Positions 3,001-56,679 of a stretch of 64,000 nucleotides of DNA are shown one piece after another (position 1 is the stretch's first letter; each line of letters opens with the position of its first letter). Source of the DNA: an uncultured Opitutales bacterium (GTDB lineage Bacteria > Myxococcota_A > UBA9160 > SMWR01); NCBI GenBank assembly GCA_964194865.1, contig CAXMOC010000275.1, positions 1,482 through 65,481 of the forward strand, read 5' to 3'. The notes below the pieces were generated by a model that searched no databases, was not told where the DNA came from, and saw nothing but the letters and a program-made list of their open reading frames with translations. The translations under genes and the position numbers were made by a program.

Positions 3001-3267
3001 CGACGGATGGAGGCGCGTGGGACGATCCGCGGCGGACGCTTTGTCACCGGCTTCGTCGGCGAGCAGTACGCACTTCCCGGTGCGGTCGATGCGCTCCGAC
3101 AAACCCGCCGCCTGGAGCGCACTGGAGAGTTGGTTCGCGTCTCGGGCGCAGATCCACTGAATCTGGTCGGCATTCTGACTCCCGGACCGCGGGTGCCGGC
3201 CCTGCGCACCCAGCGCGTGATCTATCGCGACGGCCTACCGGAATCTGCGGCGGCCGCCACGGGATAG
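1..3267 (+). CDS. lhr: ATP-dependent helicase Lhr, C-terminal two-thirds (5' end outside window)
   Basis: Frame 1 is open from base 1 (LAVLVATASLELGIDIGPVDLV, a helicase C-lobe motif). It runs into the listed 1058-aa ORF, which has an Lhr-type DEAD/H-associated C-terminal region. Confidence 0.8.
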   Translation, partial: LAVLVATASLELGIDIGPVDLVCQLGSPRSLATFLQRVGRSGHSRGATPKGRLFPTTRDELVECAALLRGVSHGRLDRLQPPTAPLDILAQQIVAACGAEDWEEDELFALVRRSAPYAELSRTDFDDIVEMLSSGIETGRGRRAAYLHRDRVHRVLRGRRGARLAALTSGGAIPDTADYRVVADPDDTFVGTVNEDFAIESMAGDVFLLGSTSWRIRRVEAGLVRVTDAAGAPPNIPFWLGEAPARTAELSAEVSDLRVIVDRYLADEDPDGAADWLRREAGLDPAGAEQIVRYIAATRSSLGATPTQRDIVVERFFDETGGMQLVVHAPFGGRINRAFGLAVRKRICRSFDFELQAAANDDALVLSLGPQHSFPLEDFAKMLSSGSVAETLSQAALASPMFTARWRWNLGRSLAILRFRGGRKNPPPIQRMEADDLMAAIFPSLAACQENVTGPIVIPDHPLVRQTLHDCLTEAMDVAGLESLLRGLEDGSVTAHFRDTTEPSPAAHEILNGKPFTFLDNAPLEERRTRAVALRRGLPEDARDLGRLDAEAISRVREEASPAPRDAEEVHDALLGFVAHRPVPDWRDAFQELVRAGRAGTVDVPAGVLWFAVESRTAIDVLFPGARVVPDVRLPEGLEPGPAPSPDEAGAAVIRGHLESAGPCTIADLAAATAFSNAGVEQAAARLEASGFLLRGHFDPQRSEPGIEQYCARHLLARIHRYTQERLRKEIEPVSAQDFLRFLLRWQHVTPDTRREGRRGLLAAIEQLQGFQVPAGAWEELVLPARVTSYRAEWLDELCLSGEVVWGRLAPRLPSATASEPGRGSAPSRATPISLATREDFAWLIEAARGMHAPVVPGPGAARDLLEALQSRGALFHAELAQSTARLPIEVEEGLWELVSRGLVTADGFQSVRALLGAKDRYARRASRRRAQSGLRRRSRARTGAEGRWALLPETADSIDRDDLAEAICEQLLARWGVIFRDLITREDVSLTWRELLYALRRMEARGTIRGGRFVTGFVGEQYALPGAVDALRQTRRLERTGELVRVSGADPLNLVGILTPGPRVPALRTQRVIYRDGLPESAAAATG

Positions 3268-8975: not shown

Positions 8976-10652
8976 GTGGCCCCTGAGTTCGTCTTCACGA
9001 TGCAGGACCTGAAGAAGGTCGTACCGCCCGACCGGGTGATCCTGGAAGGCATCACGCTGGCTTTCTTGCCAGGGGCCAAGATCGGAGTGCTCGGAGCCAA
9101 TGGCGCTGGCAAGAGCAGCTTGCTCAGGATCATGGCACTTCAGGACGGCGATTTTCTCGGAGAAGCGAAACCCGCCGAGGGTGTTCGCGTCGGCTTTCTT
9201 CCGCAGGAACCGCAGCTCGACGAGTCGAAGGACGTGCTCGGAAACGTCGAGGAGGGGGTGGCGGGGATCCGCGCCCTGCTCCAGCGGTTCGACGAGATCA
9301 GCGCCCAGTTCGGCGAGCCGCTCGATGACGATGCGATGACCGCGTTGTTGGACGAGCAGGCCAAGCTGCAGGACGAGATCGACGCGGCCAACGGATGGGA
9401 GCTCGACCGCATCCTCGAAGTGGCGATGGACGCGCTGCGCGTTCCGCAGGGCGACGCCAAGGTGGAGACCCTCTCGGGCGGGGAACGGCGGAGGGTCGCC
9501 CTGTGTCGCCTGCTGTTGCAGCAGCCGGATCTGCTGTTGCTGGACGAGCCGACCAATCACCTCGACGCCGAGTCAGTGTCCTGGCTCGAGCGCTTTCTGC
9601 AGGAATACAAGGGAACCGTCGTGGCCGTGACCCACGACCGCTACTTCCTCGACAACGCCGCCGGCTGGATCCTGGAGCTGGACCGGGGACGCGGCATCCC
9701 CTGGAAGGGCAATTACTCCGCCTGGCTGGAGCAGAAGCAGCAGAGATTGTCGGTGGAAGAGAAGCAGAAGTCCGCCCGCGGTCGCACACTGGAGCGCGAG
9801 CTCGAGTGGATCAGGATGTCGCCCCGAGGTCGCCAGGCCAAGAGCAAGGCGCGGATCAGCGCGTTCGAATCGCTGGTGGCGGAGGAGGAGCAGCGTCTGC
9901 CGGAGACCGTCGAGATTCTGATCCCTCCCGGGCCGCGTCTCGGCGACGTGGTCGTGGAGGCCGAACACCTCAGCAAGGCGTTGGGCGATCGATTGTTGAT
10001 CGACGACCTGAGTTTCTCACTGCCACGGGGTGGCATCGTCGGCGTGATCGGAGGCAACGGTGCCGGCAAGACCACCTTGTTTCGAATCATCGTGGGGCAG
10101 GAGAAGCCCGACTCCGGAACCTTGCGGCTGGGCGAGACCGTCGACGTTGCCTACGTGGACCAGAGCCGCGAGGAGCTCGACCCCAATCGAAGCGTATGGG
10201 AAGAGATCAGTGGCGGCCGCGAGCGCATTGCGATCGGTCGGCGCGAGCTCAACTCCCGCGGCTACGTGGGATCCTTCAATTTCAAAGGACCCGACCAGCA
10301 GAAAAAGGTTGGGTTGCTGTCGGGAGGAGAGCGCAACCGCGTGCATCTCGCCAAGGTTCTTCAGCGCGGCGGCAACCTGCTCCTGCTCGATGAACCCACC
10401 AACGATCTGGACATCGACACGCTGCGTGCCCTCGAGGAGGCGCTTCTGGGCTTTGCGGGCTGCGCGGTCGTGATCTCGCACGACCGCTGGTTCCTGGATC
10501 GCATCGCGACCCACATTCTCGCATTCGAGGGCGACAGCCATGTCGAGTGGTTCGAGGGCAACTACCAGCAATACGAAGCGGACCGCCGCAGCCGCATGGG
10601 CGCAGATTCCGATACTCCCCACCGTTTGAAGTATCGTCGCATCGACGCCTAG
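8976..10652 (+). CDS. ettA: energy-dependent translational throttle protein EttA (ABC-F ATPase)
   Basis: GTG at 8976 gives (M)[17 protein letters not shown], matching the EttA N-terminus. Two Walker A motifs ([18 protein letters not shown]) and two LSGGE signatures. The listed 674-aa ORF has a spurious N-terminal extension. Confidence 0.9.
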
Positions 10653-10711
10653 CTGGAAGCTTCCCAAGCTTCGACTTCCAACCTGCCAGCGAGAAGCCAG
10701 TGACCGCTCGG

Positions 10712-12250
10712 ATGGACAACGGCTCGCAGCGCCTTCTGCTGGTGGCGAGCGCCGTAATCGGTGGCCTCGCGTTCTGGCGCCTCCTGATCTGGGTTCCGAC
10801 CAAAGTGTTGATGGCGTCCTACAACTCCTGGTTTTTCGTCCCGATCGATGCCTACCCCCAGATGATCTTTGCGATGGCGGCGGCCATGGTCTTTCACAGG
10901 CGAGGGCAGCTGCGCGAGGCGATGGAGGATCGCGGCTCGCCAGCACTCGCAGCGCTTCCGCTGCTCATCGGCGTGGCGTTGTTCCTCTGGGGCCATTACG
11001 TGGACACCATGAGCGTCGTCCTCCTCTCGTTCATGTTCGTCTCCCTGGGGGCGTCCCTGCTCTGGTACGGCGTCCGGTTCGCGAAGACCTTGCTGCTTCC
11101 CTTGGCGGTACTGGCCTTTGCGTTTCCGATTCCCGCAACTCTGACCAATCAGGCCTTCGCTGGTCTGCGAGTCGCGACGGCGACTCACGCGACTGCGTTG
11201 CTGTCCCTCACGGGGTTGTCCGTCATCCGAGAGGGCAACCTGATCCACGGCTCAGGTGTCTTGGCCCACGTCATCGACACCTGCAGCGGTCTTGGTTTCA
11301 TTCAGGTGCTGACTCTCGCCGCGGTCTTCTACGTCGGGTGGTTTCCGGCGCGTACACTGCGGGGTGCGCTGTTGATCGCCGTCGCTCCCGCAATCGCGTT
11401 CGTCTTCAATCTCGCTCGCGTGTGTGTGATCATCCTCGACCCGAGCTCCGACCTGTCGGAAACCCACGCGATGCAGGGCTGGTTGGTCTTTGGCGGGTCG
11501 ATTTCGGGCCTTCTCTTCGCCGACTTCGTGCTCGGACGGTGGCTGCCGAACCGGCCACCTCAGGCTCCCCGTTCCGAGCCCGAAGATACGCAGGGAATAT
11601 CGCTTCCGAGCGCATCGGGTGATCGTGCGCGAGGCGGCCCGGCTGCGGTCGTGCTCGCGGGACTGTTGGTTGCGATGCTCGGCGTCTCGGTCTGGATGCC
11701 CAGCTGGACCCCACCCGAAACGCGTCCCAAGCTCGACACCAATCTGCCCGCGAAGCTGGGTCCGTGGAAGCTGGATCGGGAAATGGCCATCGATCGCAAC
11801 TTTCTGTGGACCGTGCGCTTCCACAAGCAAGTGTATCGACAATACGAGCGCGATGGCGAAGTGGTGGCGGTGTTCATCGGCTATGACGACCGCAGCGATC
11901 GGCGTCGAAGTCCGATCTCCCCCAAAAACGCGGTGCCCGGCCGGGGCTACGAGATCGTGGAGCGGGGCCCCGTCGCGGTTCCGCCGTGGACCTCGAAGGC
12001 CGAGTGGGTGCTATCGAGAGTCGGATCGATCCGTTTTTTGAGCTTCTACTGGTATGAGGGTACCGAGTCTCTGGCCCGCGAGACGCTGCGCGCCGTCCTG
12101 GCGTTGGACCAATCCCCGTTGGGTCGCACACAGCCCGCACGCGTGATTCGCCTGACGGCCACGGTCGGACAAACCCCTCGGGCGCGCGAGGAAGCCAAAG
12201 CAAGGTTGCACGACTTTGCAGCGTCTCTCGCGGAGGCCCTCGGAGGTTAG
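10712..12250 (+). CDS. exosortase (EpsH family) fused to a C-terminal EpsI-family domain
   Basis: Polytopic N-terminal half carries the exosortase triad context: VIDTCSGLG (Cys), FNLARV (Arg), THAMQGW (His). The C-terminal soluble half contains SPKNAVPGRGY, which resembles the EpsI HSPxxCLPGxGW motif. Confidence 0.8.
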   Translation: MDNGSQRLLLVASAVIGGLAFWRLLIWVPTKVLMASYNSWFFVPIDAYPQMIFAMAAAMVFHRRGQLREAMEDRGSPALAALPLLIGVALFLWGHYVDTMSVVLLSFMFVSLGASLLWYGVRFAKTLLLPLAVLAFAFPIPATLTNQAFAGLRVATATHATALLSLTGLSVIREGNLIHGSGVLAHVIDTCSGLGFIQVLTLAAVFYVGWFPARTLRGALLIAVAPAIAFVFNLARVCVIILDPSSDLSETHAMQGWLVFGGSISGLLFADFVLGRWLPNRPPQAPRSEPEDTQGISLPSASGDRARGGPAAVVLAGLLVAMLGVSVWMPSWTPPETRPKLDTNLPAKLGPWKLDREMAIDRNFLWTVRFHKQVYRQYERDGEVVAVFIGYDDRSDRRRSPISPKNAVPGRGYEIVERGPVAVPPWTSKAEWVLSRVGSIRFLSFYWYEGTESLARETLRAVLALDQSPLGRTQPARVIRLTATVGQTPRAREEAKARLHDFAASLAEALGG

Positions 12251-12420
12251 AGCCGCCACCGCAGCAAATCTCCGGAGCTTCATGCCCAGAAGCACCGTGA
12301 AATCCCTTTAGTTCAGTGCTCCCCTTGCCGATCTATGAGAGTCGCAGCGTTGGAACGGGCATGCGAATTGAGATTGGCCGTTCCGTCCGCCGTTTTTCCC
12401 GTTCAAGGGGGGGGGTTGGC

Positions 12421-12999
12421 GTGCAGATCCATTCGAGGAAACGAGCCGGTTTCACGCTGGTCGAGCTGATGATCGTCGTCGCCATCATCGGCGTGCTCAG
12501 CTCCATCGCGATCCCCAACTTCATCCGCTGGGCGGCGCGCTCCCGGCGCAGCGAGGCCTACGTCAACCTCGCAGCCGTTGCCCGTCTCCAGACCATTCAT
12601 CACACCGAGAAAGGCCAGTACTTCGAGGCGGCCGCCTGGCCAGACTACGTCGCAAACGGCGGGCTCGGTACGAATCGGATGGAGTGGGACGCCGCTTCCG
12701 AGGCCGCCTACAACGATCTCGGATGGCGGCCCGAAGGCGAAGTCTTCTACACCTACGAGAGCAACACCGGAGCCACCGCCTGCACCTGCGCGACCTGCTT
12801 CACGGCAACCGCCGCGGGCGACGTGGACGCCGATGGCCTTCCCTCAGCCGTCATGTACGTTCACCCCGAGAGCGATATCGACGGCAACGTGACGGGTGAA
12901 TGTCCGTCCGGCTTGTTCGGGTTTGGCACGCCCGTCGATGGCAACGGCGACGCGATCTACGACAGCGTCGCCATCCAGCGATCACTCGATGAGTTCTAG
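12421..12999 (+). CDS. type IV pilin-like protein (prepilin N-terminal cleavage/methylation domain)
   Basis: GTG at 12421 is preceded by AAGGGGGGGG. Short basic leader VQIHSRKRAG, then FTLVELMIVVAIIGVLSSIAIP (G-1, F+1, E+5). Confidence 0.8.
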   Translation: MQIHSRKRAGFTLVELMIVVAIIGVLSSIAIPNFIRWAARSRRSEAYVNLAAVARLQTIHHTEKGQYFEAAAWPDYVANGGLGTNRMEWDAASEAAYNDLGWRPEGEVFYTYESNTGATACTCATCFTATAAGDVDADGLPSAVMYVHPESDIDGNVTGECPSGLFGFGTPVDGNGDAIYDSVAIQRSLDEF

Positions 13000-16453: not shown

Positions 16454-17782
16454 TCAGCGGGGGCCCGCGAAGATCCACGGGTCGCCCAGCGTGGCGAAGC
16501 GCCCCGCCGACGTAATCGAGCTGCCGTCCATGAGCCAGCCTTCGAGCGAGCCGTCGGTGTGTCGCCAGATGAGATCGTCGGCCCCATCTCCGTCGAGGTC
16601 AGCGATGCTGGCCACCTGCCATTCGAGACCCCTCGACGGCAGCGATCCCATGCTGACGAGATCCGCGCCATCGAACGTCCAGGTTGAGGAGTCGCCGAGC
16701 GAGCTGCGGAGGAGTACGTCGTCCCGCCCGTCCGCATCGAAGTCGCCCACGCGGCCGAGCTGCCAGCCGGCTCCGATCTTGTCCAGGTCGATCGATTGCC
16801 GCACGAAGCAGCGAACGCCGACCGAAGAACCGCACGTCCACGGCGGCGATCCATCCACCAGGAGTACGAGTCTCAGTTCCCCTGCAGATGTTTGTACGAG
16901 CCAATCGTCGGTTCCGTCTCCGTCGAAGTCCCCCGAGCGGAGCTGCGCGGCGGAAGAGAATCCGAACTGGTGGTCGATTACGTCGATGACCGCGGCGCCG
17001 TTGAGCAGCCATGTCGACACCGCATCGTCCAATTCGTTTCGCATCGAGAGGTCCGAGCGCCCGTCGCCGTTGTAGTCGCCGACGGAGCCGAGAACCCAGT
17101 CGGCACCCGGATCGAGGACGTCGATCCCGGAGCCGGTCACGTAGACCGCGATAGCTCCCGTCGTCTCATCTCTCCACAGGACGTCGGGAATTCCATCTCC
17201 GTTGAAGTCGCCCGAGGTGGCGTCTCCGCCGGGTGAGGTAACGAGGTATTGACGGTCGAGGATCTCCAGCCCCGCCATCGACCACACCCGAACCACTCCA
17301 GTGTCGGTATTCTGGAGGATGAGGTCCGCCCCATCCAAATTGGCATCCGGACTGGGTGTCGGATCTGGAATGGGTGGCGGCTCCGAAACGGGTGTCGGTT
17401 CCGAGGTGGGTGTGTTACCGGGAATGGGTGTCGGTTCGGCATCCGGATCCTCGACGAACCGCACCGCCTCCGAGGGCTCGGACAGGGGTCCGATCGACCG
17501 AACGCGGCGGTGTATGGATACGCCGGCGACGGTGACGACGATCGAATCTCCGAAACTTCCATGGACCGTCGCCTGTGCGTTGCTCACATAGGCGTACAAC
17601 TGCATGGCCTCGTTGTTGAAGGAGACGCGGACCAGATACTCCGCTACCGGACCGGGCGCTGGATCCCAGGCGAAGGTCGCCGACTCGACACCAATGAGTG
17701 TCGTTGTCGCGACGGCGGGCATGGGCCAAAACGCAAGAGCCAAGCCCAGGGCGGCGAAAGCCGCCGTAGGTCTATGATGCAC
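16454..17782 (-). CDS. secreted FG-GAP/VCBS repeat (beta-propeller) protein with N-terminal FnIII-like domain and Pro/Thr linker
   Basis: Signal peptide AFAALGLALAFWPMPAVA. PT-rich linker. Repeated GDFNGDGxxDxLWR-type Ca-binding FG-GAP motifs, at least 5 copies. Confidence 0.8.
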   Translation of the reverse strand: MHHRPTAAFAALGLALAFWPMPAVATTTLIGVESATFAWDPAPGPVAEYLVRVSFNNEAMQLYAYVSNAQATVHGSFGDSIVVTVAGVSIHRRVRSIGPLSEPSEAVRFVEDPDAEPTPIPGNTPTSEPTPVSEPPPIPDPTPSPDANLDGADLILQNTDTGVVRVWSMAGLEILDRQYLVTSPGGDATSGDFNGDGIPDVLWRDETTGAIAVYVTGSGIDVLDPGADWVLGSVGDYNGDGRSDLSMRNELDDAVSTWLLNGAAVIDVIDHQFGFSSAAQLRSGDFDGDGTDDWLVQTSAGELRLVLLVDGSPPWTCGSSVGVRCFVRQSIDLDKIGAGWQLGRVGDFDADGRDDVLLRSSLGDSSTWTFDGADLVSMGSLPSRGLEWQVASIADLDGDGADDLIWRHTDGSLEGWLMDGSSITSAGRFATLGDPWIFAGPR

Positions 17783-17912
17783 GCTTGGTTCCCCCAGAAA
17801 GCCCGTGAAGTCACGCGGCGCAGATCATCCACGAGTTAGGGTACGCGGTAAGTGACCGCCGTCACATGCCTGTGGCAAGACCCAATACAAAACACTGTTT
17901 TGAAATTTCTCC

Positions 17913-22241: not shown

Positions 22242-23984
22242 ATGGATCCCTCTCGCTTCAATCCCGAGCAGCGCCGCCGAGTTCTGCATCGGTTGAGAGA
22301 CGAAAAGTTCGACCTGGCGATCATCGGGGGCGGCGTTACGGGCTGCGGAGCGGCACTGGACGCCGCGTCCCGCGGCCTTTCGGTGGCGTTGATCGAGAAG
22401 CGTGACTTCGCGGCCGGCACTTCGAGCCGATCGAGCAAGCTGATCCACGGGGGCCTGCGCTATCTCGAGCAGCTCCACTTCGGGTTGGTTCGGGAAGCCC
22501 GCTCCGAGCAATCACTGCTGCTGACGCGGCTATGTCCCCACCTGGTTCGACCGGTTCCGTTCCTGTATCCGCTCCGCCACCGCGTGTGGGAGCGGGCCTA
22601 TGTGGGTGCCGGAGCGTTGCTGTACGACCGCATCGGTGGGAAGCCAGTGCTGCCCCGCCACCGGCACCTGACCCGGAGGGCGGCGCTGACGTTGTTCCCC
22701 GCCCTCCGCCGCGACGCGCTCGTCGGGGCGATTCAGTACTACGACGCCCAGGTCGACGATGCCCGCCACACCCTCGCATTGGCGCGCAGCGCCGCGATCT
22801 ACGGCGCGGCGCTGGCCACCAGCATTCGGGCGATTGGTTTCGAGAAGCGTGACGGCCGAATTCGCGCGATCCGCGCGCGCTGTCTCGAGACTGGCGCCGA
22901 TCTCGAGATCCGCGCCGACCAGGTGATCAACGCCACCGGAGTCTGGACCGAGGGCGTCCATGGTCTGGCTGGCGGTGGACACATCCGGGTGCGCGCGTCG
23001 AAGGGCATTCACCTGCTCGTCGAGCGCGACCGCATACCCGCCGAAAGCGGTCTGATCCTGCGCACCGCATCCAGCGTCCTGTTCGTGATTCCGTGGCGCG
23101 ACCACTGGGTGATCGGCACCACGGATACCGGCTGGAACCTCGATCTCGATCATCCCGCTGCCAGTCGCAAAGACATCGATTATCTGCTGACCACCTTGAA
23201 CGCCGTTCTCTCCAATCCCTTGGAGCACCGGGACATCGTGGGCGTCTACGCGGGCCTGCGCCCTCTGCTCTACGGCGAGGACGATTCCACGAGCCGACTC
23301 TCGCGGGAACACGCCGTCTCGACCGCAGACTCCGGTCTGATCAGCGTCGCCGGTGGGAAGTACACCACGTACCGGATCATGGCGAAGGATGCGGTCGACC
23401 TGGCTGCCAGGCGGCTCGACGCTGCAGTGCCGCCGTCGAGCACCCATCGTCTACCACTGATCGGGGCCGAAGGTTACCAGAGCCTTCTCGAGCGTCGCAG
23501 CGAGTTAGCCCGCCAAGCCGGGCTGCCTGAGACGAGGATCGCCGGGCTCCTGGAGCGGTACGGCTCGTGCTGTACCGAGCTGCTCGCGATGATCGAGGAA
23601 CGACCGGAGCTCGGAGAGCCGCTGGAAGGGGCGGAAGCTTATCTGCGCTGCGAGGCCCTTTACGCGGCGACCCACGAGGGTGTACTGCACCTCGACGATC
23701 TCCTCACGCGACGCCTGCGGGTTTCCATTGAGACGCCGGATCGCGGGCTGCGGGCCGCGCAGTCCGTCAGCAATCTTGTGTCTGCCGCGCTGGGCTGGAG
23801 CGAAGAGACCAGACAGCGCGAGATCGTGCACTACGAGGCGAGGGTGGCAGCGGAGCGGGAATCCCAGGAGCAGCTCGACGACCGCACCGCGGATGCAGCT
23901 CGGCTGGGCGCGCCCGATGTTCGCACGGGCGGCCGAGCCGCCGGACTCCCGCCGTCGTCCGATCGTCGACGGCTGCCAGGGTAG
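22242..23984 (+). CDS. glpD: FAD-dependent glycerol-3-phosphate dehydrogenase
   Basis: ATG at 22242. DLAIIGGGVTGCGAALDAASRG FAD motif, GTSSRSSKLIHGGLRYLE, and a C-terminal GlpD alpha-helical domain. Confidence 0.88.
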   Translation: MDPSRFNPEQRRRVLHRLRDEKFDLAIIGGGVTGCGAALDAASRGLSVALIEKRDFAAGTSSRSSKLIHGGLRYLEQLHFGLVREARSEQSLLLTRLCPHLVRPVPFLYPLRHRVWERAYVGAGALLYDRIGGKPVLPRHRHLTRRAALTLFPALRRDALVGAIQYYDAQVDDARHTLALARSAAIYGAALATSIRAIGFEKRDGRIRAIRARCLETGADLEIRADQVINATGVWTEGVHGLAGGGHIRVRASKGIHLLVERDRIPAESGLILRTASSVLFVIPWRDHWVIGTTDTGWNLDLDHPAASRKDIDYLLTTLNAVLSNPLEHRDIVGVYAGLRPLLYGEDDSTSRLSREHAVSTADSGLISVAGGKYTTYRIMAKDAVDLAARRLDAAVPPSSTHRLPLIGAEGYQSLLERRSELARQAGLPETRIAGLLERYGSCCTELLAMIEERPELGEPLEGAEAYLRCEALYAATHEGVLHLDDLLTRRLRVSIETPDRGLRAAQSVSNLVSAALGWSEETRQREIVHYEARVAAERESQEQLDDRTADAARLGAPDVRTGGRAAGLPPSSDRRRLPG

Positions 23985-23988
23985 CTGT

Positions 23989-24600
23989 TCAGGTCTTGGC
24001 TTTCTGGATGTAGTAACGGACCAGCTCGAAGCGGTCGTTGCCCCAGAACATTTCGTCCCCAACGAACAGCGTTGGCGCACCGAATACTCCGCGCTCGACC
24101 GCAGCGCGCGAGTCGGCGTCCAATCGCTCCCGCAGCTGCTCCGATTGGGCGCGCTCCAGCGCGTCGTCCGCGTCCAGACCGGCACCCGCCAGTAGCGAAC
24201 CCACGATTTCGGGGTCGGCGATGTCGCGGGCCTCGGCCCAGCGCGCGCGGAAAGCGGGATAGTGGAACTCGCGGAACCGGCCCTCGTCGCGGGCGACCAG
24301 AGCCGCTTGGGTCATCAGCCGAACACTGGGTCGATGCTTTCGGCTCTCCGGAGAGAACTGCGCACCGCATAGCTCTGCCCAATGTTGGAGGTCCGCCGCG
24401 TAGTTCTCTCGCTTTCTCGGTCCCAGGCGAGGGCTCTCGACGCCCTCAGGCAGTGGGTTGGGCGATTTCTCGACGATGATCGAAAGCAGGGCGGGGCGAA
24501 AATCGAGTTCCACGCCGAGATCGTTGAAATAGGGCTCCGCTCGGCAACTGCCGAGATAGGCCCAGGGTCAGGCGTAGTCGAAGTAGAAGGGAATCTGCAC
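23989..24600 (-). CDS. DsbA / 2-hydroxychromene-2-carboxylate isomerase-fold protein with in-frame TGA at codon 11 (candidate selenocysteine; alternatively a pseudogene)
   Basis: The C-terminal 174 aa form the listed ORF (GVFGAPTLFVGDEMFWGNDRFE). The same frame upstream reads GTG(24600) QIPFYFDYA TGA(24570..24568) PWAYLG. GAGGAG lies 5 nt before the GTG. Confidence 0.6.
24532..24563 (-). promoter_or_regulatory. SECIS-like stem-loop downstream of the in-frame UGA
   Basis: The mRNA reads UGA CCCU GGGC CUAU CUCGGC AGUU GCCGAG CGGA GCCC. This gives a 6-bp upper helix starting 12 nt after the UGA, GU in the tetraloop, and a 4-bp lower helix across a 4x4 internal loop. Confidence 0.45.
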
Positions 24601-24686
24601 GGCTTCTCCTCAGCTCGAACTCGAGGCGAGTCCTCTGGCTGCCATTCTGGCGCAGAAGCTGGTGAATGTCCCGCCCGACCTCGCTC

Positions 24687-25229
24687 TCACTTCGACGAGT
24701 CAGAAGCCTCTCGATCTGCGCCGATTCGATCGCAGAAGACGCCGAAGCTCCAGCTGGTCTCGTCAGCGGCGAGCCGACGCTCGAGCAGGTCCGCGAGGTA
24801 CGACCAGGACCAACCGACGAGCTGGTCGTCGAGAAAGATCAGCGGTTCGAGTTGTAATCGGCCCTGCACGAAGGGGCAGTCGGAGACACCCCAGGCCTCG
24901 ACGAAGAACCGCGTCACCTCGTACTCCTCACCTAGCGTCGAGGTGTAACTACGGCTGTCGAAGGGATTGCCGATGGCTGCCGGTCCTGCTCCCCATTCGT
25001 TCTTCCAGGGGGGCTCCGTCTCGAGGCGTCCGATCGCGTCGAGCGCGTCGCTTCGAGACACGCCGTAGGTGAGCTGCTCGCGAGCCAGCTCTGCCCTGCA
25101 GCCGATGGCGCGGTGTCCATCGCCACGCGGGCAACTGCCAGAAGCGCAGCCGAGCCCCAGCAGCTGCAGCCATAGCAGCGCTGCGATTACCCCCGAAGGG
25201 CAGGTCGCAAACTTCCAGATCCGATTCAT
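24687..25229 (-). CDS. hypothetical lipoprotein
   Basis: MNRIWKF start. Signal peptide with lipobox LLGLGC. The listed 350-aa ORF is an Arg-rich artefactual extension. Confidence 0.6.
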   Translation of the reverse strand: MNRIWKFATCPSGVIAALLWLQLLGLGCASGSCPRGDGHRAIGCRAELAREQLTYGVSRSDALDAIGRLETEPPWKNEWGAGPAAIGNPFDSRSYTSTLGEEYEVTRFFVEAWGVSDCPFVQGRLQLEPLIFLDDQLVGWSWSYLADLLERRLAADETSWSFGVFCDRIGADREASDSSK

Positions 25230-25231
25230 GA

Positions 25232-26233
25232 TCAGGGCTCGAGCACCACCTTGATGGCCCCCTCGTCGCGTCGGGCTGCCGTCGCGAAGCCCTCGGCCGC
25301 AGCTTCCAAGGGTAGACGGTGCGTGATCAAGATCTCCGAGATCTCGGGCCGCCGACCGAGCACGGCCGCCGCCGCATCGATGTCGCGAATCAATCCGCGC
25401 TGTGCATACATCGATGACGCGAGAATCGAGAGCCCCTTGTTGGTCACTTCGAAACTCGGCAGGCTGAGGCCGCTCCAGTAGGTCGCCAACAGCAACAGCG
25501 TTGCGCCGGGTCGACAGAGGCTCACGCAGCGCTCGAGCGAGTCGGGCGTTCCGGCAGCATCGACGACGACGTCGTACTCGCCCTCCACGCCGACAGCGCC
25601 GAGGCGCCGACCGGCCTCTCTCTGCGCCTCGTGCCGGGCCTCGAGAGCGATCGACGCTCCGCCGACGCAACCCGCAGCGACGGCGCACAGGCCGATCGAG
25701 CCACCTCCTACTACCGCCGCCCGTGGTCTGCCTTTCCAATTCAAGCGTCGCAGACCACAGACCGCCACAGCCAGGGGCTCGATCAGGCAGGCGTCGCGGA
25801 CGTCGACGCCGCTCGGGAGGCGAACCAGACAGCGCTCGGGGACGACCATCTCGTCGGCCATTCCCCCGTCGCGGCCAACGCCCATGACCATCTCACTTCC
25901 GCGGCGACACCAGTTGTACTCACCAGCGGCGCAGAATTCGCAGTGAGAGCAAGGCGCCAGCGGCTCGATGGCCACCGGGGTTCCATCCCTCAACTCCCCA
26001 GCCATTTCGTGGCCCAGGGTGTGTGGAACCGGAAAACCACCGGCCGCCATATGAAGATCTGATCCACAAATGCCGGCCGACCGGATCGAAACCCGAACGC
26101 CTTCCCCAGCGGGTGCGGGAACTTCGATGACCTCGACAGCACCTTTTGTACAGCGAACTGCTCGCAACGTTCCCCGCGGATTCGATCCAACTGCCACCGG
26201 TGTCGGGCTTGCGGGGCACCCCCGCGCCGACAC
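25232..26233 (-). CDS. zinc-binding alcohol dehydrogenase (MDR family)
   Basis: ICGSDLH, GHEMAGE (catalytic Zn) and the structural-Zn Cys cluster CSHCEFCAAGEYNWC. A TTG at 26167 giving (M)RAVRCTKGAVEV is a likelier start than 26233. Confidence 0.85.
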   Translation of the reverse strand: MSARGCPASPTPVAVGSNPRGTLRAVRCTKGAVEVIEVPAPAGEGVRVSIRSAGICGSDLHMAAGGFPVPHTLGHEMAGELRDGTPVAIEPLAPCSHCEFCAAGEYNWCRRGSEMVMGVGRDGGMADEMVVPERCLVRLPSGVDVRDACLIEPLAVAVCGLRRLNWKGRPRAAVVGGGSIGLCAVAAGCVGGASIALEARHEAQREAGRRLGAVGVEGEYDVVVDAAGTPDSLERCVSLCRPGATLLLLATYWSGLSLPSFEVTNKGLSILASSMYAQRGLIRDIDAAAAVLGRRPEISEILITHRLPLEAAAEGFATAARRDEGAIKVVLEP

Positions 26234-26252: not shown

Positions 26253-26326
26253 TGGATCCCCGGCGTGGATTCGAACCACGATTCACAGATTCAAAGTCTG
26301 TTGTCCTGCCATTGGACGACCGGGGA
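26253..26326 (-). tRNA. tRNA-Gln (anticodon UUG)
   Basis: Hand-folded 74-nt cloverleaf. Acceptor UCCCCGG/CCGGGGA, D-arm GUCC/GGAC, anticodon arm ACAGA-CUUUGAA-UCUGU, T-arm CGUGG-UUCGAAU-CCACG, discriminator U, encoded CCA. Confidence 0.9.
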
Positions 26327-40764: not shown

Positions 40765-40880
40765 GACGGATCCCTCGCGCGAGAGCGCCGGGGACGGCAA
40801 CCTCGCGGGCGTGATCCTAGCCTGGATTCAGTCGATCCAGTCCGGGTACAGTTGGGGTTCAGTCGGGCTTCAGTTGTGCT

Positions 40881-42161
40881 TTAGTCGGGAATCGGCGCGT
40901 TGCGTTGCTCCCCGGTCGCGAGATCCCGAACCAGGGCTTCACCCCGCTCCAGCTCATCGGGGCCGACCAGGTAGATCTCCGCAGCGCCCGAGCGGTCTGC
41001 CCCCGCGAGCACCCGTTTGAGTCGCGTGTCGCCGAGAACCAGCTCGACCTGGCGGCCCTGCGCCCGCAGATCGCTCGCGATGCGCACCGCTGCAGTTCGT
41101 TGCGCGTCGGAGAAGGCGAAAACCACGGTGAACGGGGCTCGGGACAGATCTGGGAGGCGCTTTTGCTCCGCGAGCAACTCGCCGATCACCACGTCTCCGA
41201 GACCGAACCCAACCGCCGCCGTGGCAGGTCCCCCCAGGGTTTCGAGCAGCCGGTCGTAGCGGCCTCCGCCGCAAATGGCGCGCAGCTGTCGCCCTGTGTC
41301 GAAGGCTTCGAAGACCACACCGGTGTAGTACGCCAGCCCGCGAACGATCGAAGCGTCGAAGACGACGCGATCTCGGTGTCCGTAGGCGTCGATCAGCTCG
41401 AAGAGCCGCAGCAGCTCTTGCAGTGCCGCGGAGCTCGTCCCGGCGGCGTTTTCGGCGTCGGCGATCTCTCGCAGCTCGAGCCACTGCAGCACGAAGCGCG
41501 CATCTTCCGTTGGCAGGGCCACGGGGCCCGCTGCATCCGTGAGCAGCTCGGTCACCCCGTCTGCGCCGATCTTGTCGAGCTTGTCGATGGCGACGCAGAG
41601 AGCCGGGAAGACCTCAGGCCGCTGCTTCAAGACAGTTTCCCGCAGCGTCTCTTCCAGCAGGGCGCGGCTGCTGATGCGGATCTTCACGCCCCCCGGTTCG
41701 AGGCCGAGTGAGTCGAGAAGCTGAAAGATCGCAGCAATCAGCTCCGCCTCTGCGGTTACCCCGGGCTCGCCCCAGATGTCCATGTTCCACTGGTAGTGCT
41801 CGCGCTTGCGTCCCCGACTCATGCGCTCGTAACGCCAGCATTGGGGCAGGCTGAACCAACGCAGCGGAAAGCGCAGGCCGCCGCGGCGCGCCATCACCAT
41901 ACGGGCCACCTGCGGTGTGATCTCCGGCCGCAGCGCCAGGCTCTTGCCGTGCAGCTCGAAGTGGTAGAGCTGATCGACGATCTCTTCTCCCGCCTTGCGG
42001 GTGAACAGCTCGGCCTGCTCGAGCACGGGAGCATCGACCTCCTCGAAGCCGAACAGGGCCGCGGTGGCGCGAAAGTGCTCGAAGAGCCAGCTTCGGAGGC
42101 GGAGCTCCTCGGGGTAGAAGTCGCGGGTGCCGCGGGGCGCCTGGAAGCTCTGGCTGCTCAC
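40881..42161 (-). CDS. hisS: histidine--tRNA ligase
   Basis: PRGTRDFYPEE, LALRPEITP, class II motifs, and a C-terminal anticodon-binding domain. Confidence 0.88.
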   Translation of the reverse strand: MSSQSFQAPRGTRDFYPEELRLRSWLFEHFRATAALFGFEEVDAPVLEQAELFTRKAGEEIVDQLYHFELHGKSLALRPEITPQVARMVMARRGGLRFPLRWFSLPQCWRYERMSRGRKREHYQWNMDIWGEPGVTAEAELIAAIFQLLDSLGLEPGGVKIRISSRALLEETLRETVLKQRPEVFPALCVAIDKLDKIGADGVTELLTDAAGPVALPTEDARFVLQWLELREIADAENAAGTSSAALQELLRLFELIDAYGHRDRVVFDASIVRGLAYYTGVVFEAFDTGRQLRAICGGGRYDRLLETLGGPATAAVGFGLGDVVIGELLAEQKRLPDLSRAPFTVVFAFSDAQRTAAVRIASDLRAQGRQVELVLGDTRLKRVLAGADRSGAAEIYLVGPDELERGEALVRDLATGEQRNAPIPD

Positions 42162-42268
42162 GGTCTCTCCATATCACACCGCGGCCGCCTCGTCTCAACT
42201 CGACCCGAGATCGCTGTCGATCCACGTTGAGACTGCTATCCCTCCGCTTCCAACTCTCGGGAGGGCCC

Positions 42269-43597
42269 ATGACGATCTGTCGGTTCACACTCATGCTGGC
42301 GCTGAGCGCCGCATTGGCCGCCTGCGGAGGCGAGGATGCGCCCCCGAGCGATCGACCCTCCCAGCCCGCAGCGGCCACAGCGACCGCCAAGCCGAAGCCG
42401 GCCCAACCCACCACGGCAGATTCCCTACCGAAGGGGATCGTGCTCTCGCTGGCCCAGTTCGTGACGGAGACGGGCGATGACGGCAAGGACAAGGTCGTGC
42501 CCGGCCCAGCCCGGCTGGAGTTCCTGTACCGCCAGGACGGCCGCTGGCAGACCGCTGAGCTCGAGGATCCGGAGAGCAACGTCTTCCACAAGGCGATGAG
42601 CTACGAGATCGGCGGCGAACAGCGGCTGCTGACGCTGGGCGGCACCGCAGCCATCCTCAAATCATGGGAGCTCACGGAAGAGGGTCTCGTGCCGACCGTA
42701 CTGTGGCAGAAGGACTTCGGCGGACGATTCAGCCGTATGCGCGACGCCGAAATCGCCGACATCTTCGGCGATGGAAGCGTCGTATTTGCTGTCGCCACCC
42801 ACGATCAGGGCGTCGTGGCACTGGTGCGTCCGAGCGGCGATGGCTTCGACGTGCAGGAGTTGGATCAGAAGGAGAACACCTTCGTCCACGAAGTCGAAGT
42901 AGGCGATCTCGACGGGGACGGGGTACTCGAGCTGTACGCCACGCCGAGTGAGCCCAACCGCCTCGACGGGTCGCCCCAGTCGGGAGAGGTGGTTCGCTAC
43001 GTCCCGGCCAAGGGCGATGAGCGGGTCGTCGTCGCCGATCTCGGCGACCGCCACGCCAAGGAAATCCTGGTGACGGACATCGACGGCGACGGGCGAGACG
43101 AGCTCTACGTGTCCGTCGAGGGCGAGATCGAGAAGAAGGGAGGGAGCAAGCGAATCAAGTCGCCGGTGGAGATTCGTCGCTACGACGCCGACACCCCCCC
43201 CGCTGAGGGTGTGTTGATCGGAGTCTTGCAGGACTCAATGAGTCGCTTCCTGACCGCTGGCGACGTGGAGGGTGACGGCAAGCGGGAGCTCGTCGCAGCT
43301 GCCTTCAGCAGCGGAGTCTGGCTGTTTCGGCCGGACGGCGGAACGGGAGGGCGCTGGAAGAGCGAGTTGATCGACCGAGACTCCGCCGGCTTCGAGCACG
43401 CATCGATTCTCACCGATCTCGATGGTGACGGCGCGGACGAGCTCTACGTCGCGAGCGATCGCGACAAGGAGGTCCGTCGCTACGTCTGGAATGGAGCGCG
43501 CATGGTGCGAGAGACGATCTACAAGCGTCCCGACGACCGGCCTATCTTTACCTGGAATCTGATGCCCGTACCCGTCGAACTGATTCCGCGCGGCTAG
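42269..43597 (+). CDS. FG-GAP/VCBS repeat lipoprotein
   Basis: GGGAGGG SD. Lipobox LSAALAAC. Repeats GDLDGDGVLELY, TDIDGDGRDELYV, GDVEGDGKRELV, TDLDGDGADELYV. Confidence 0.75.
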   Translation: MTICRFTLMLALSAALAACGGEDAPPSDRPSQPAAATATAKPKPAQPTTADSLPKGIVLSLAQFVTETGDDGKDKVVPGPARLEFLYRQDGRWQTAELEDPESNVFHKAMSYEIGGEQRLLTLGGTAAILKSWELTEEGLVPTVLWQKDFGGRFSRMRDAEIADIFGDGSVVFAVATHDQGVVALVRPSGDGFDVQELDQKENTFVHEVEVGDLDGDGVLELYATPSEPNRLDGSPQSGEVVRYVPAKGDERVVVADLGDRHAKEILVTDIDGDGRDELYVSVEGEIEKKGGSKRIKSPVEIRRYDADTPPAEGVLIGVLQDSMSRFLTAGDVEGDGKRELVAAAFSSGVWLFRPDGGTGGRWKSELIDRDSAGFEHASILTDLDGDGADELYVASDRDKEVRRYVWNGARMVRETIYKRPDDRPIFTWNLMPVPVELIPRG

Positions 43598-47130: not shown

Positions 47131-47230
47131 TGACCCCGGTCCTCGGATCGGGGAGGGCCGGGTGCGAGCCGGATTCAGGAGTGGATTCCGGGATGGCTTC
47201 CCGGGACGAATTTCTTGACGAGGAGGGGTC

Positions 47231-51784: not shown

Positions 51785-51813
51785 CCCGAGCAGATCGCAC
51801 GCGCATTGTTTCG

Positions 51814-53286: not shown

Positions 53287-53346
53287 GACGACCTCCGTGG
53301 GAGCGCCGCGGATTCTATCGTACCCTCGGATCGGGAGTGATTTGCG

Positions 53347-56121: not shown

Positions 56122-56679
56122 CGTGTAATCCTCGCGGCGATCCGGGCGTCGTCCCGGTTGGTTCAGATCGAAGGGCTCTCTCCCGCGCAGCAGAGAAGCC
56201 CGAATTCATTCATGAATTCCTCCCACGATGATACCAGCTCCTGGCTTCCGCGCACCGGAGACGAACAATGGTTGTTCAGAATCCCATCGAGGCTACGAGC
56301 CCCTGCAAGTCGGCCGACCGTTCGCTCTCAAGCCGAACGCTTGCGGGCAGGAAGCGCCGCAAAGGCGAATTGTCCCAAAAACCTGCAGATTCGGCGATTG
56401 CGACGGCTGTTGTCTTGACGCTGTCGTCTTGACGAAATGGGGCTTCCGTAGTATCCCACCGCCCGTCGATCGACCCGTAATGGAAGCACTTCCGAGTGTT
56501 TCCCCGCGGTCATCGGCGTTCCGTTCGCACTCCGGGGCCCGCGTCTGGTGACCAGCGCGGGGTTGGCGTAGGGTGGACTGTTCTTACTTCGATCGTCGCG
56601 AGCGCCGGCGGTTGGTCTGCGATCGGGCCCGTAGGATGGCCGAGACTTCTGACACCCGAAGGGGGCCCGAAGTTCCCGA

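What the first reader, a model, noticed from the sequence alone, without database searches (positions are those of the whole stretch)
23989..24600. In-frame UGA at the catalytic position of a DsbA/HCCA-isomerase-fold gene, with SD-led start and SECIS-like hairpin: candidate selenoprotein truncated by ORF calling
The listed ORF (23989..24513, minus strand) begins inside the thioredoxin-fold domain. The same frame upstream reads GTG(24600) Q I P F Y F D Y A TGA(24570..24568) P W A Y L G S C R A E P Y F N D L G and joins VELDF... in frame. FDYA-x-PWAYLG is the beta1/active-site/alpha1 signature of DsbA-FrnE, HCCA-isomerase and GST-kappa proteins (compare D..CPWCY.G and F..SP.SYL). The TGA sits exactly where the nucleophilic Cys or Ser sits. 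A GAGGAG Shine-Dalgarno lies 5 nt upstream of the GTG, so ribosomes should load upstream of the stop. Twelve nt after the UGA the mRNA can form CUCGGC-AGUU-GCCGAG, extended by GGGC/GCCC across a 4x4 internal loop. This geometry is close to the E. coli fdhF SECIS, whose minihelix starts about 11 nt after the UGA and has GU in the apical loop. A Cys lies 8 residues after the UGA and could act as a resolving residue. Sec at the redox position of thioredoxin-fold proteins is the commonest class of bacterial selenoprotein.
Basis: partly seen in the sequence, partly recalled or inferred. Interest (0 to 1): 0.8.

Follow-up and report, generated by a model that had tools for sequence, protein, structure and literature searches.

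The report
Selenocysteine gene miscalled as truncated DsbA
A small cytoplasmic redox-enzyme gene uses an internal UGA "stop" codon to insert selenocysteine at its active site, guided by a conserved RNA hairpin just downstream, so gene callers cut off its front end; this type of selenoprotein is already catalogued, but public databases routinely mis-annotate it.

Summary
On the minus strand, GTG 24600 (SD GAGGAG 5 nt upstream, in-frame stop 4 codons upstream) opens a 203-codon frame. Its only internal stop is TGA 24570..24568. Only the full frame gives an end-to-end Pfam DSBA match. The TGA aligns with catalytic Ser16 of GST-kappa, Ser11 of HCCA isomerase, and Cys in 72 distinct homologues. 24 distinct relatives (49-100% aa identity, at least 3 clades, including syntenic orthologues) keep the same TGA as their single internal stop. 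All carry the hairpin YUCGGC-AGUU-GCCGRG 12 nt after UGA, which meets the published bacterial SECIS criteria. Third-codon-position identity is 0.95 over the hairpin versus 0.52 elsewhere in TGA forms, and 0.53 versus 0.55 in Cys forms. Ser is AGU in 24/24 TGA forms versus 3/67 Cys forms. The hairpin core occurs 35 times in 1.65 Mb of fetched DNA, always 12 nt after TGA. The "resolving Cys" idea is not supported. Sec machinery could not be checked, because none lies in the 64-kb window. Sec-containing DsbA-fold proteins are catalogued, including a "form 2, DxxUP" motif that this protein fits, so this is a new member of a known kind. Public records truncate it.

The parts
23989..24600 (-). Complete selenoprotein gene: 203 sense codons (GTG start, Sec at codon 11) plus TGA stop. 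It encodes a cytoplasmic monothiol DsbA-fold protein of the HCCA-isomerase / GST-kappa branch.
   Evidence: Frame is continuous. Pfam DSBA PF01323 covers residues 2-199 and profile positions 1-191 of 191, E 7e-34. Best solved relatives are 2IMD, 3FZ5, 1YZX. There is no signal peptide: strand beta1 starts at residue 2 in the model.
24606..24611 (-). Shine-Dalgarno-like GAGGAG, 5 nt upstream of the GTG start.
   Evidence: Read directly from the sequence. An in-frame TGA at 24612..24610 excludes any earlier start.
24598..24600 (-). GTG start codon.
   Evidence: Homologues start at the same position (M/V-x-[IL]-P-F-Y-F-D-Y-A).
24568..24570 (-). In-frame UGA, inferred selenocysteine codon (residue 11), at the N-cap of helix alpha1.
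   Evidence: It aligns with Cys in 72 distinct homologues and with TGA in 24. It aligns with Ser11 of 2IMD and Ser16 of GSTK1. In the AF2 model of a 75%-identical Cys homologue, residue 11 lies between strand 2-7 and helix 12-28.
24540..24555 (-). bSECIS upper stem-loop CUCGGC-AGUU-GCCGAG: 6 bp, 4-nt loop with GU at loop positions 2-3, loop starting 18 nt after the UGA, -9.5 kcal/mol.
   Evidence: Meets all four published bSECIS criteria (criteria; test). Present in all 24 distinct TGA forms and in none of 72 Cys forms. Third-position identity 0.95 here versus 0.52 in the rest of the gene. The core occurs 35 of 35 times exactly 12 nt after TGA in 1.65 Mb.
24532..24563 (-). Possible extended SECIS including the lower helix GGGC/GCCC.
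   Evidence: Predicted by RNAfold. Across TGA forms the lower helix is only 79.5% paired and its register shifts between clades. It is built from codons (W-A ... [APS]-Y) that are also conserved in Cys forms, so it is not independently supported.
23989..24513 (-). The 174-aa ORF as mechanically called. It lacks beta1, the active site and most of alpha1.
   Evidence: The same truncation (108-176 aa) appears in public annotations of relatives, e.g. NRA01136.1 'DsbA family protein'.
23989..23991 (-). True termination codon, also TGA.
   Evidence: No hairpin core follows it.

Best explanation
This is a real selenoprotein gene. Ribosomes start at GTG 24600. At UGA 24570..24568 a SelB-type elongation factor carrying Sec-tRNA(Sec), bound to the hairpin 12 nt downstream (24555..24540), inserts selenocysteine instead of terminating. 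Translation then continues to the TGA at 23991..23989. The 203-residue product is a cytoplasmic thioredoxin-fold protein of the DsbA-like HCCA-isomerase / kappa-GST branch. Its single catalytic residue (motif D-Y-A-U-P-W-A) sits at the N-terminus of helix alpha1. Characterised relatives have there a Ser that activates bound glutathione, and sister proteins have a Cys. Steps that are shown: (1) the extended frame is the real gene; (2) the position is the family's catalytic one; (3) the TGA is under long-term selection; (4) the hairpin is under RNA-level selection only in TGA forms. Steps that are inferred: Sec is what gets inserted, and the chemistry. By analogy with the Ser-to-Cys switch in other GST classes, I propose a monothiol-type glutathione-dependent thiol/selenol transferase, reductase or peroxidase cycle through a Se-S-glutathione intermediate, rather than HCCA isomerisation or periplasmic disulfide formation.
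For: Gene model: only the extended frame gives a full-length DSBA match (profile 1-191 of 191). The 10 codons upstream of the TGA show synonymous variation without amino-acid change in 24 of 24 TGA forms (P4, Y6, D8, Y9), so they are translated.

Catalytic position: phmmer alignments put the codon opposite Ser11 of HCCA isomerase 2IMD and Ser16 of GSTK1 1YZX. Ser16 is the catalytic residue of GSTK1's S16xxS19 centre (PMC10295636; PMC13573697). The AF2 model (pLDDT 94.7) places residue 11 at the N-cap of alpha1. The top Foldseek hits are 2IMD, 3FZ5, FrnE and GSTK1.

Sec/Cys pairing: among fetched loci the codon is TGA in 31 (24 distinct), TGC/TGT in 78, and AGC/AGT in 21 distant homologues.

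Long-term retention: TGA forms are 49-100% identical to one another (median 59%). Each has exactly one internal stop and 199-212 codons. They fall in at least 3 clades interspersed with Cys forms. Syntenic orthologues L011, L021 and L087 keep the TGA although BipA is only 79% identical.

SECIS: loop AGUU, 6-bp stem, 18-nt spacing and -9.5 kcal/mol satisfy the consensus bSECIS model. 20 of 24 TGA forms pass strictly, and the other 4 have the same loop with a slightly weaker stem. No Cys form has this hairpin. Ser codon AGU is 24/24 in TGA forms versus 3/67 in Cys forms (p = 5e-19). Arg codon CGA is 21/24 versus 2/72 (p = 6e-16). AGU is only 5.7% of Ser codons in the window's genes. Third-position identity is 0.95 in codons 15-19 versus 0.52 elsewhere in TGA forms, and 0.53 versus 0.55 in Cys forms. 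In a Cys form nested among TGA forms (L166) the stem survives but the loop GU has become GC. The core sequence occurs 35 of 35 times 12 nt after TGA in 1.65 Mb.

Lineage: the closest relatives are Myxococcota MAGs. Cultured Myxococcota are known Sec users (Peng 2016 Table S2; Anaeromyxobacter has a DsbA-like selenoprotein).
Against: No selA, selB, selD or tRNA-Sec is in the window or in the flanks of 26 TGA loci, so the organism's Sec capacity is inferred, not shown. The stem shows no compensatory double substitutions (0 of 6 pairs). The single-sequence fold z-score is only -2.07. No other selenoprotein candidate was found in the window. The proposed chemistry rests on analogy only. No conserved operon partner points to a substrate outside the window's own subclade. 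Glutathione binding is inferred from the conserved WGNDR/FGxP motifs, recalled from memory of GSTK structures and not verified here.
Confidence: 0.9

Rival explanations
1. Nonsense pseudogene: a Cys-form gene recently acquired TGC/TGT to TGA and is decaying.
For: A single-base change converts TGC/TGT to TGA. Cys forms are the majority (78 of 109 Cys+TGA loci). No Sec machinery was seen in the window.
Against: The same TGA is present in 24 distinct sequences down to 49% mutual identity, in at least 3 clades and in syntenic orthologues. None has a second stop or a frameshift. The codons upstream of the TGA evolve under purifying selection. A hairpin specific to TGA forms is maintained at synonymous sites.
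Confidence: 0.01
2. The functional product is the truncated 174-residue protein starting at GTG 24513. The upstream frame is untranslated leader or a separate 10-codon leader peptide, and the hairpin acts as a regulatory element.
For: Gene callers choose this ORF here and in many relatives. A short upstream ORF followed by a hairpin superficially resembles an attenuator.
Against: The truncated product lacks beta1, the active site and most of alpha1 of the fold. The 19 codons between the TGA and GTG 24513 are conserved as protein, in frame, and are homologous to alpha1 of Cys forms. Called starts in relatives are inconsistent (108-183 aa), as expected for an artefact. There is no SD-like sequence before 24513 (...AACGATCTCGGC GTG).
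Confidence: 0.03
3. UGA is read through, but as Cys or another standard amino acid rather than Sec. This could be a recoded genetic code, a suppressor tRNA, or the Sec machinery delivering Cys.
For: The tools cannot identify the inserted residue. Cys is what homologues have at this site. From general knowledge, Cys can be misinserted at Sec codons when selenium is limiting.
Against: TGA is used as an ordinary terminator by many genes in the window, including this gene's own stop, so there is no global reassignment. A site-specific hairpin that satisfies the SelB-type bSECIS model, with its loop GU lost precisely when the codon becomes TGY, is the signature of Sec decoding. Sec use is known in the phylum.
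Confidence: 0.05

Closest known systems
DsbA-like selenoprotein 'form 2' (PF01323, Sec motif DxxUP; example MDP6049977.1), catalogued in Zhang et al. 2026, PMC13188914
   Same: Same Pfam family and same Sec motif: the window protein reads D-Y-A-U-P. In both, Sec occupies the Ser/Cys position of the HCCA-isomerase-type branch rather than sitting in a UxxC dithiol motif.
   Different: [quoted passage not shown] The window protein is a stand-alone 203-residue DSBA domain. I could not retrieve the example sequence, so orthology is untested. The cited source (Peng 2016) does not separate this form in its tables.
DsbA-like selenoproteins form 1 / DsbA 1-2 (UxxC, COG2761 FrnE type) and DsbA 3 (UxxV) from the Sargasso Sea and GOS surveys (PMC1088965, PMC2398784)
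   Same: Thioredoxin-fold DSBA domain with Sec at the N-terminal active-site position, Cys homologues widespread, bSECIS immediately downstream. DsbA 3 is also monothiol.
   Different: Forms 1 and 2 of those surveys are dithiol UxxC. The window protein is U-P-W-A (monothiol), and its nearest solved relatives are HCCA isomerase and GST-kappa, with FrnE more distant.
2-hydroxychromene-2-carboxylate isomerase (NahD, PDB 2IMD) and kappa-class glutathione transferase GSTK1 (1YZX, 1R4W)
   Same: Closest solved structures (phmmer E 6e-18 and 1e-07; Foldseek TM 0.77). Shared motifs are FYFD-x-x-[S/C/U]-P-x-x-Y-L at the N-terminus and FG-x-P ... WGNDR / FGSDR at the C-terminus.
   Different: These enzymes have Ser at the catalytic position and use glutathione's own thiol as nucleophile (PMC10245115). 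The window clade has Sec or Cys there, which implies covalent enzyme-Se/S chemistry. Identity is only 18-27%. No naphthalene-pathway genes are nearby.
E. coli fdhF / fdnG SECIS and the consensus bSECIS model
   Same: A stem-loop inside the coding region directly after UGA, a small apical loop carrying G followed by U, 18 nt from UGA to loop (allowed range 16-37), and sufficient stability. From memory, the fdhF minimal element starts 11 nt after UGA and needs loop G23/U24.
   Different: The sequence is unrelated. No bulged U equivalent to fdhF U17 is evident. SelB binding is untested.

Membership tests
Bacterial selenoprotein gene (Sec-UGA decoded via bSECIS) | In-frame UGA within a conserved coding frame, with homology continuing on both sides | tested here: met
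   full-length DSBA match only across the TGA; conserved peptide upstream and downstream of it.
Bacterial selenoprotein gene (Sec-UGA decoded via bSECIS) | Cys-containing homologues aligned at the UGA position (Sec/Cys pair) | tested here: met
   72 distinct TGC/TGT forms reading FYFDYA-C-PWAYLG.
Bacterial selenoprotein gene (Sec-UGA decoded via bSECIS) | UGA conserved in orthologues from other organisms | tested here: met
   24 distinct TGA forms, 49-100% identical, at least 3 clades, syntenic orthologues included.
Bacterial selenoprotein gene (Sec-UGA decoded via bSECIS) | bSECIS consensus: 3-9 nt loop, 4-16 bp upper stem, G in the first two loop positions followed by G/U, 16-37 nt from UGA to loop, MFE <= -7.5 kcal/mol | tested here: met
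   Criteria from PMC13188914. Window values: loop AGUU, 6 bp, 18 nt, -9.5 kcal/mol.
Bacterial selenoprotein gene (Sec-UGA decoded via bSECIS) | RNA structure under selection (covariation or synonymous-site constraint) | tested here: met
   Synonymous constraint is specific to TGA forms. Compensatory covariation is absent, so this is met through conservation only.
Bacterial selenoprotein gene (Sec-UGA decoded via bSECIS) | Genome encodes selA, selB, selD and tRNA-Sec | not testable with these tools
   None in the 64-kb window or the locus flanks. The phylum is known to use Sec.
Bacterial selenoprotein gene (Sec-UGA decoded via bSECIS) | Selenium physically present in the protein | not testable with these tools
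   Requires 75Se labelling or mass spectrometry.
DSBA-like thioredoxin domain (Pfam PF01323), HCCA-isomerase / GST-kappa branch | Full-length match to the family profile above the gathering threshold | tested here: met
   117.7 bits versus cut-off 25.6, profile 1-191 of 191.
DSBA-like thioredoxin domain (Pfam PF01323), HCCA-isomerase / GST-kappa branch | Thioredoxin fold with an inserted helical domain; active-site residue at the N-cap of alpha1; conserved cis-Pro loop (FGxP) | tested here: met
   AF2 model of the 75%-identical P0004, pLDDT 94.7. Foldseek top hits 2IMD, 3FZ5, FrnE, GSTK1 with TM 0.76-0.81. G174 and P176 are invariant.
2-hydroxychromene-2-carboxylate isomerase (functional enzyme, NahD type) | Catalytic Ser in the FDxxSP motif, with glutathione as non-consumed cofactor | tested here: not met
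   The position is Sec/Cys, not Ser. The public name 'HCCA isomerase' for this clade is therefore probably a misnomer.
2-hydroxychromene-2-carboxylate isomerase (functional enzyme, NahD type) | Location in a naphthalene/PAH catabolic gene cluster | tested here: not met
   Neighbours are Zn-ADH, a lipoprotein, GlpD-like, PhyH, glyoxalase and BipA. Other clades have unrelated neighbours.
Periplasmic DsbA disulfide oxidase | Signal peptide and a CxxC dithiol active site | tested here: not met
   Beta1 starts at residue 2, so there is no leader. The motif is U-P-W-A.
DsbA-like selenoprotein form 2 (DxxUP) of PMC13188914 | PF01323 domain with Sec in a DxxUP motif | tested here: met
   D8-Y-A-U11-P12; PF01323; catalogue entry.
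DsbA-like selenoprotein form 2 (DxxUP) of PMC13188914 | Sequence-level orthology or shared architecture with the catalogue example MDP6049977.1 | not testable with these tools
   The accession is not retrievable here. [quoted passage not shown]

The most novel reading that the evidence does not exclude
This Myxococcota clade would be a distinct catalytic class of kappa-type glutathione transferase / HCCA-isomerase-fold enzyme, in which the Ser that normally activates glutathione has been replaced by a nucleophilic Cys or Sec. This parallels the Ser/Tyr-to-Cys switch that created the Omega, Beta, Lambda and DHAR classes of cytosolic GSTs. It would give a monothiol seleno-enzyme that cycles through an enzyme-Se-S-glutathione intermediate (deglutathionylase, reductase or peroxidase). 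In addition, the SECIS would dictate protein sequence: the invariant Gly17-Ser18-Cys19-Arg20 of Sec forms would be held by RNA structure rather than by protein function, and would relax (Cys19 to H/S/A/T) once Sec is replaced by Cys.
Probability: 0.4. Interest if true: 0.5.

Novelty: new member of a known kind. Interest (0 to 1): 0.4.

Why it matters
(1) Annotation. This gene and dozens of relatives are deposited as N-terminally truncated 'DsbA family protein' or 'HCCA isomerase' records (108-176 aa) that lack the active site. No NCBIfam selenoprotein model covers the clade, so automatic pipelines will keep miscalling it. The alignment and hairpin defined here would be enough to build such a model. 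(2) Enzymology. Sec or Cys in place of the glutathione-activating Ser of kappa-GST/HCCA isomerase points to a different, uncharacterised chemistry in a fold of medical interest (GSTK1/DsbA-L). (3) Evolution. The family offers a clean natural series of Sec forms, a very recent Cys convert with the stem intact but the loop GU lost, and older Cys forms with the hairpin and Cys19 decayed. That series is useful for studying how SECIS elements constrain coding sequence and how Sec/Cys exchanges proceed. None of this is surprising to a selenoprotein specialist. It is a solid, well-behaved example rather than a new principle.

Tried and rejected
- Sec machinery. I looked for tRNA-Sec with ARAGORN and Rfam on the window and with ARAGORN on 26 TGA loci. 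I ran Pfam on about 40 window ORFs. I ran tblastn with an E. coli SelD sequence recalled from memory against all 1.65 Mb. The only hit was in L072, an unrelated Binataceae contig with a Ser-type homologue. This showed the query works but said nothing about the TGA-form genomes.
- Other selenoprotein genes in the window. A GC3-based screen for coding-like TGA read-through found two trivial cases without a bSECIS (60468..60470 +, 40828..40830 -). The filter was crude: it missed the DsbA case itself because of a local GC3 threshold. The negative result is therefore weak.
- Covariation. The count of structure pairs found no compensatory double changes, so covariation is dropped as an argument.
- Lower helix. 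It is not consistently paired and its register shifts between clades. I do not claim it as part of the element.
- Resolving Cys19. Rejected.
- Structure prediction of the window protein itself. The tool rejected the U-to-C edited sequence, so I used the natural Cys homologue P0004 (75% identical) instead.
- Identifying the review's 'form 2' example. The accession appears only in the review, and Peng 2016's main text and supplements do not list it separately. No paper in the library links selenoproteins with hydroxychromene isomerase.
- Promoter and terminator scan of 23700..25400. Nothing found.
Full report
**1. Observation**

On the minus strand the sequence reads GAGGAG (24611..24606), AAGCC, GTG (24600..24598), CAG ATT CCC TTC TAC TTC GAC TAC GCC, TGA (24570..24568), CCC TGG GCC TAT CTC GGC AGT TGC CGA GCG GAG CCC TAT .... 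It continues in frame through the GTG at 24513, which the ORF lister chose, to TGA at 23991..23989. An in-frame TGA four codons before the GTG (24612..24610) rules out any earlier start. The hairpin CUCGGC-AGUU-GCCGAG (24555..24540) begins 12 nt after the UGA and is part of the RNAfold minimum-energy structure. Alone it is only modestly unusual (z = -2.07).

**2. The extended frame is the gene**

With the TGA read as a sense codon, the 203-residue product matches Pfam DSBA (PF01323) over residues 2-199 and profile positions 1-191 of 191 (E 7e-34). The 174-residue ORF lacks the first strand, the active site and most of helix alpha1.

phmmer against PDB sequences places the TGA opposite Ser11 of HCCA isomerase (2IMD, FYFDFL-S-PFSYLA) and Ser16 of human GST-kappa (1YZX, LFYDVL-S-PYSWLG). 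Ser16 is the catalytic residue of GSTK1's S16xxS19 centre (PMC10295636; PMC13573697).

An AlphaFold model of the closest natural Cys homologue (P0004, 75% identical; pLDDT 94.7) has strand 2-7, the active-site residue 11, then helix 12-28. Its best structural matches are 2IMD, 3FZ5, FrnE and GSTK1. There is no signal peptide, so the protein is cytoplasmic and is not a periplasmic DsbA.

**3. Comparative evidence for the UGA**

A protein search returned two length classes. One is full-length proteins of about 200 aa reading FYFDYA-C-PWAYLGSC. The other is calls of about 172-176 aa that begin at the same false start as the window ORF.

DNA fetched for the short class shows the same in-frame TGA. 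Across 166 loci from GTDB genomes and JGI metagenomes, the codon is distributed as follows:
- TGA in 31 loci (24 distinct sequences).
- TGC or TGT in 78 loci.
- AGC or AGT in 21 distant (33-37% identical) HCCA-isomerase-like proteins.

The 24 distinct TGA genes are 49-100% identical to one another (median 59%). Each has exactly one internal stop and 199-212 codons. They lie in at least three clades interspersed with Cys forms on a neighbour-joining tree.

L011, L021/L085 and L087 are positional orthologues of the window gene, sharing the order Zn-ADH, lipoprotein, this gene, GlpD-like..., glyoxalase, BipA. They come from genomes whose BipA is only about 79% identical, and all retain the TGA. 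The ten codons upstream of the TGA show synonymous variation with no amino-acid change. A recent nonsense pseudogene, or a protein that really starts at 24513, cannot explain this pattern.

**4. Comparative evidence for the hairpin**

The stem-loop is built from the codons for L/F-G-S-C-R, a peptide also common in Cys forms. The test is therefore synonymous codon choice.

| Codon | TGA forms | Cys forms |
|---|---|---|
| Leu/Phe16 | CUC or UUC, 24/24 | CUC 41, CUG 16, other 14 (of 71) |
| Gly17 = GGC | 24/24 | 41/65 |
| Ser18 = AGU | 24/24 | 3/67 (AGC predominates) |
| Cys19 = UGC | 23/24 | 37 of 48 Cys codons |
| Arg20 = CGA | 21/24 (remaining 3 CGG) | 2/72 (CGC 40) |

Fisher p is 5e-19 for AGU and 6e-16 for CGA. 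AGU is only 5.7% of Ser codons in the window's own genes.

Synonymous entropy at codons 15-19 is 0, 0, 0, 0.25 and 0.41 bits in TGA forms, against 0.89, 1.48, 1.09, 0.80 and 1.52 in Cys forms. Flanking codons are equal in the two groups. Mean third-position identity is 0.95 over the hairpin versus 0.52 in the rest of the gene for TGA forms, and 0.53 versus 0.55 for Cys forms.

The published consensus bSECIS model requires a 3-9 nt loop, a 4-16 bp upper stem, a G within the first two loop positions followed by G or U, 16-37 nt between UGA and the loop, and MFE <= -7.5 kcal/mol (PMC13188914). The window element has loop AGUU, 6 bp, 18 nt and -9.5 kcal/mol, so it meets all four. 20 of 24 TGA forms pass on the upper stem alone, and the other four have the same loop with a slightly weaker stem. 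No Cys form has this hairpin.

A Cys form nested among TGA forms (P0154/L166) keeps the stem but reads AGC UGC CGG, which changes the loop GU to GC.

Caveat: the stem is so conserved that there are no compensatory double substitutions. There are only 12 wobble-preserving single changes (C-G to U-G, U-A to U-G, G-C to G-U). I do not count it.

**5. What was not supported**

Cys19, 8 residues after Sec, is invariant in Sec forms but is replaced by His, Ser, Ala, Thr and other residues in 23 of 71 Cys forms. It lies two turns down the same helix. Its codon provides the last loop nucleotide and the first two 3'-stem nucleotides. Its conservation in Sec forms is therefore more simply explained by the SECIS than by a resolving-thiol role. 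The active site is best described as monothiol (U-P-W-A).

**6. What could not be tested**

The window contains only one tRNA (Gln, 26253..26326) and no SelA, SelB or SelD domains among about 40 ORFs. tblastn with a recalled E. coli SelD found a homologue only in an unrelated Binataceae locus. Sixty-four kilobases of a multi-megabase genome is uninformative on this point. The closest relatives are all Myxococcota ('Deltaproteobacteria') MAGs, and Sec use is documented in cultured members of that phylum.

**7. Mechanism**

Shown:
- The gene model.
- The catalytic position of the codon.
- Long-term selection on the UGA.
- RNA-level selection on a SECIS-compatible hairpin, only where the codon is UGA.

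Inferred:
- SelB with Sec-tRNA(Sec) binds the hairpin and inserts Sec at codon 11.
- The chemistry. Characterised relatives use the Ser at this site to activate the thiol of bound glutathione, and HCCA isomerase uses GSH as a non-consumed cofactor (PMC10245115). Replacing that Ser by Cys or Sec, as in the Cys-type classes of cytosolic GSTs (general knowledge), should convert the enzyme to covalent catalysis through an enzyme-Se-SG intermediate. That would make it a glutathione-dependent deglutathionylase, reductase or peroxidase.
- Glutathione binding. The C-terminal WGNDR and FGxP motifs shared with GSTK1/HCCA isomerase are consistent with retained glutathione binding, but the role of those motifs is recalled from memory.

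The label '2-hydroxychromene-2-carboxylate isomerase' carried by relatives is probably wrong. The catalytic Ser is absent and there is no aromatic-catabolism context.

**8. Comparison with what is known, and novelty**

Sec-containing DsbA-fold proteins have been catalogued since 2005: DsbA-like UxxC in the Sargasso Sea survey, and DsbA 1, 2 (UxxC) and DsbA 3 (UxxV) in GOS. A 2026 review lists 'DsbA-like protein form 2', PF01323, motif DxxUP. The window protein (D-Y-A-U-P) fits that motif.

[quoted passage not shown] No NCBIfam selenoprotein model matches; the best hit is 21 bits against a cut-off of 190. Public records of relatives are truncated.

I classify the finding as a new member of a known kind. 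It is real and cleanly demonstrated, it is useful for annotation, and it has an interesting but unproven enzymological angle. It is not surprising to specialists, because Sec at the redox position of thioredoxin-fold proteins is the commonest class of bacterial selenoprotein.

**9. Verdict**

| Item | Value |
|---|---|
| Observation | Confirmed |
| Confidence that this is a Sec-decoded gene | about 0.9 |
| Interest | 0.4 |

Noticed in passing
window 24687..25739 (-) and 25232..26233 (-): The 350-aa ORF upstream of the selenoprotein gene is over-called and overlaps the Zn-dependent alcohol dehydrogenase gene in another frame. The likely real gene starts at ATG 25229. It encodes 180 aa (MNRIWKF...) with a lipobox-like LGLGC, and begins 2 nt after the ADH stop. 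The order ADH, lipoprotein, DsbA(Sec) is conserved in L011, L021 and L087, so the three may be co-transcribed.
   Followed up: partly
window 23984..23991: The GlpD-like gene (+, ends 23984) and the selenoprotein gene (-, ends 23989) converge with only 4 nt between their stop codons, and no terminator-like hairpin was found. The selenoprotein gene's true stop is also TGA, so one mRNA carries one UGA read as Sec and one read as stop.
   Followed up: partly
L166 558..1166 (protein P0154): A Cys form (TGT) that clusters with TGA forms at high identity. The hairpin stem is intact, but Ser AGU has become AGC and Arg CGA has become CGG, turning loop AGUU into AGCU. It looks like a snapshot of SECIS decay soon after a Sec-to-Cys replacement.
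   Followed up: partly
window 56653..61840 (+): A gene cluster resembling Alternative Complex III or a polysulfide-reductase-type module: multihaem cytochrome c7/cIII (56653..57408), an 1119-aa molybdopterin-oxidoreductase plus 4Fe-4S fusion (57111..60470), and an NrfD-type membrane subunit (60371..61840).
   Followed up: no
window 10394..12999 (+): Exosortase EpsH fused with DUF3485 (10394..12250), followed by a protein with an N-terminal methylation (type IV pilin-like) motif (12301..12999). FG-GAP repeat proteins lie at 16454..17824 (-) and 42005..43597 (+).
   Followed up: no
window 47219..53373: A very large 1521-aa ORF with a DUF1302 segment (47219..51784, +), next to a DUF1329 protein (51814..53373, -). 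A DUF1329 gene also lies about 1.2 kb from the TGA-form DsbA gene in L003 (7961..9403). This is probably coincidental.
   Followed up: no
L072 2640..3653 (-): A SelD (selenophosphate synthetase) homologue (40% identical to E. coli SelD over 342 aa) lies about 6 kb from a distant Ser-type DSBA homologue on a Candidatus Binataceae contig. It is unrelated to the TGA-form clade.
   Followed up: no
public records of relatives (P0001, P0017, P0021 = NRA01136.1, P0048, P0113 clusters): At least ten 90%-identity clusters comprising about 87 deposited sequences of this gene are called at 108-183 aa with inconsistent false starts, and are named 'DsbA family protein' or '2-hydroxychromene-2-carboxylate isomerase'. 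This is a systematic annotation error.
   Followed up: yes
window 1..3267 (+): The window begins inside a large Lhr-type helicase gene (DEAD/H-associated and Lhr winged-helix domains). Several long minus-strand ORFs over it are high-GC shadow ORFs.
   Followed up: no
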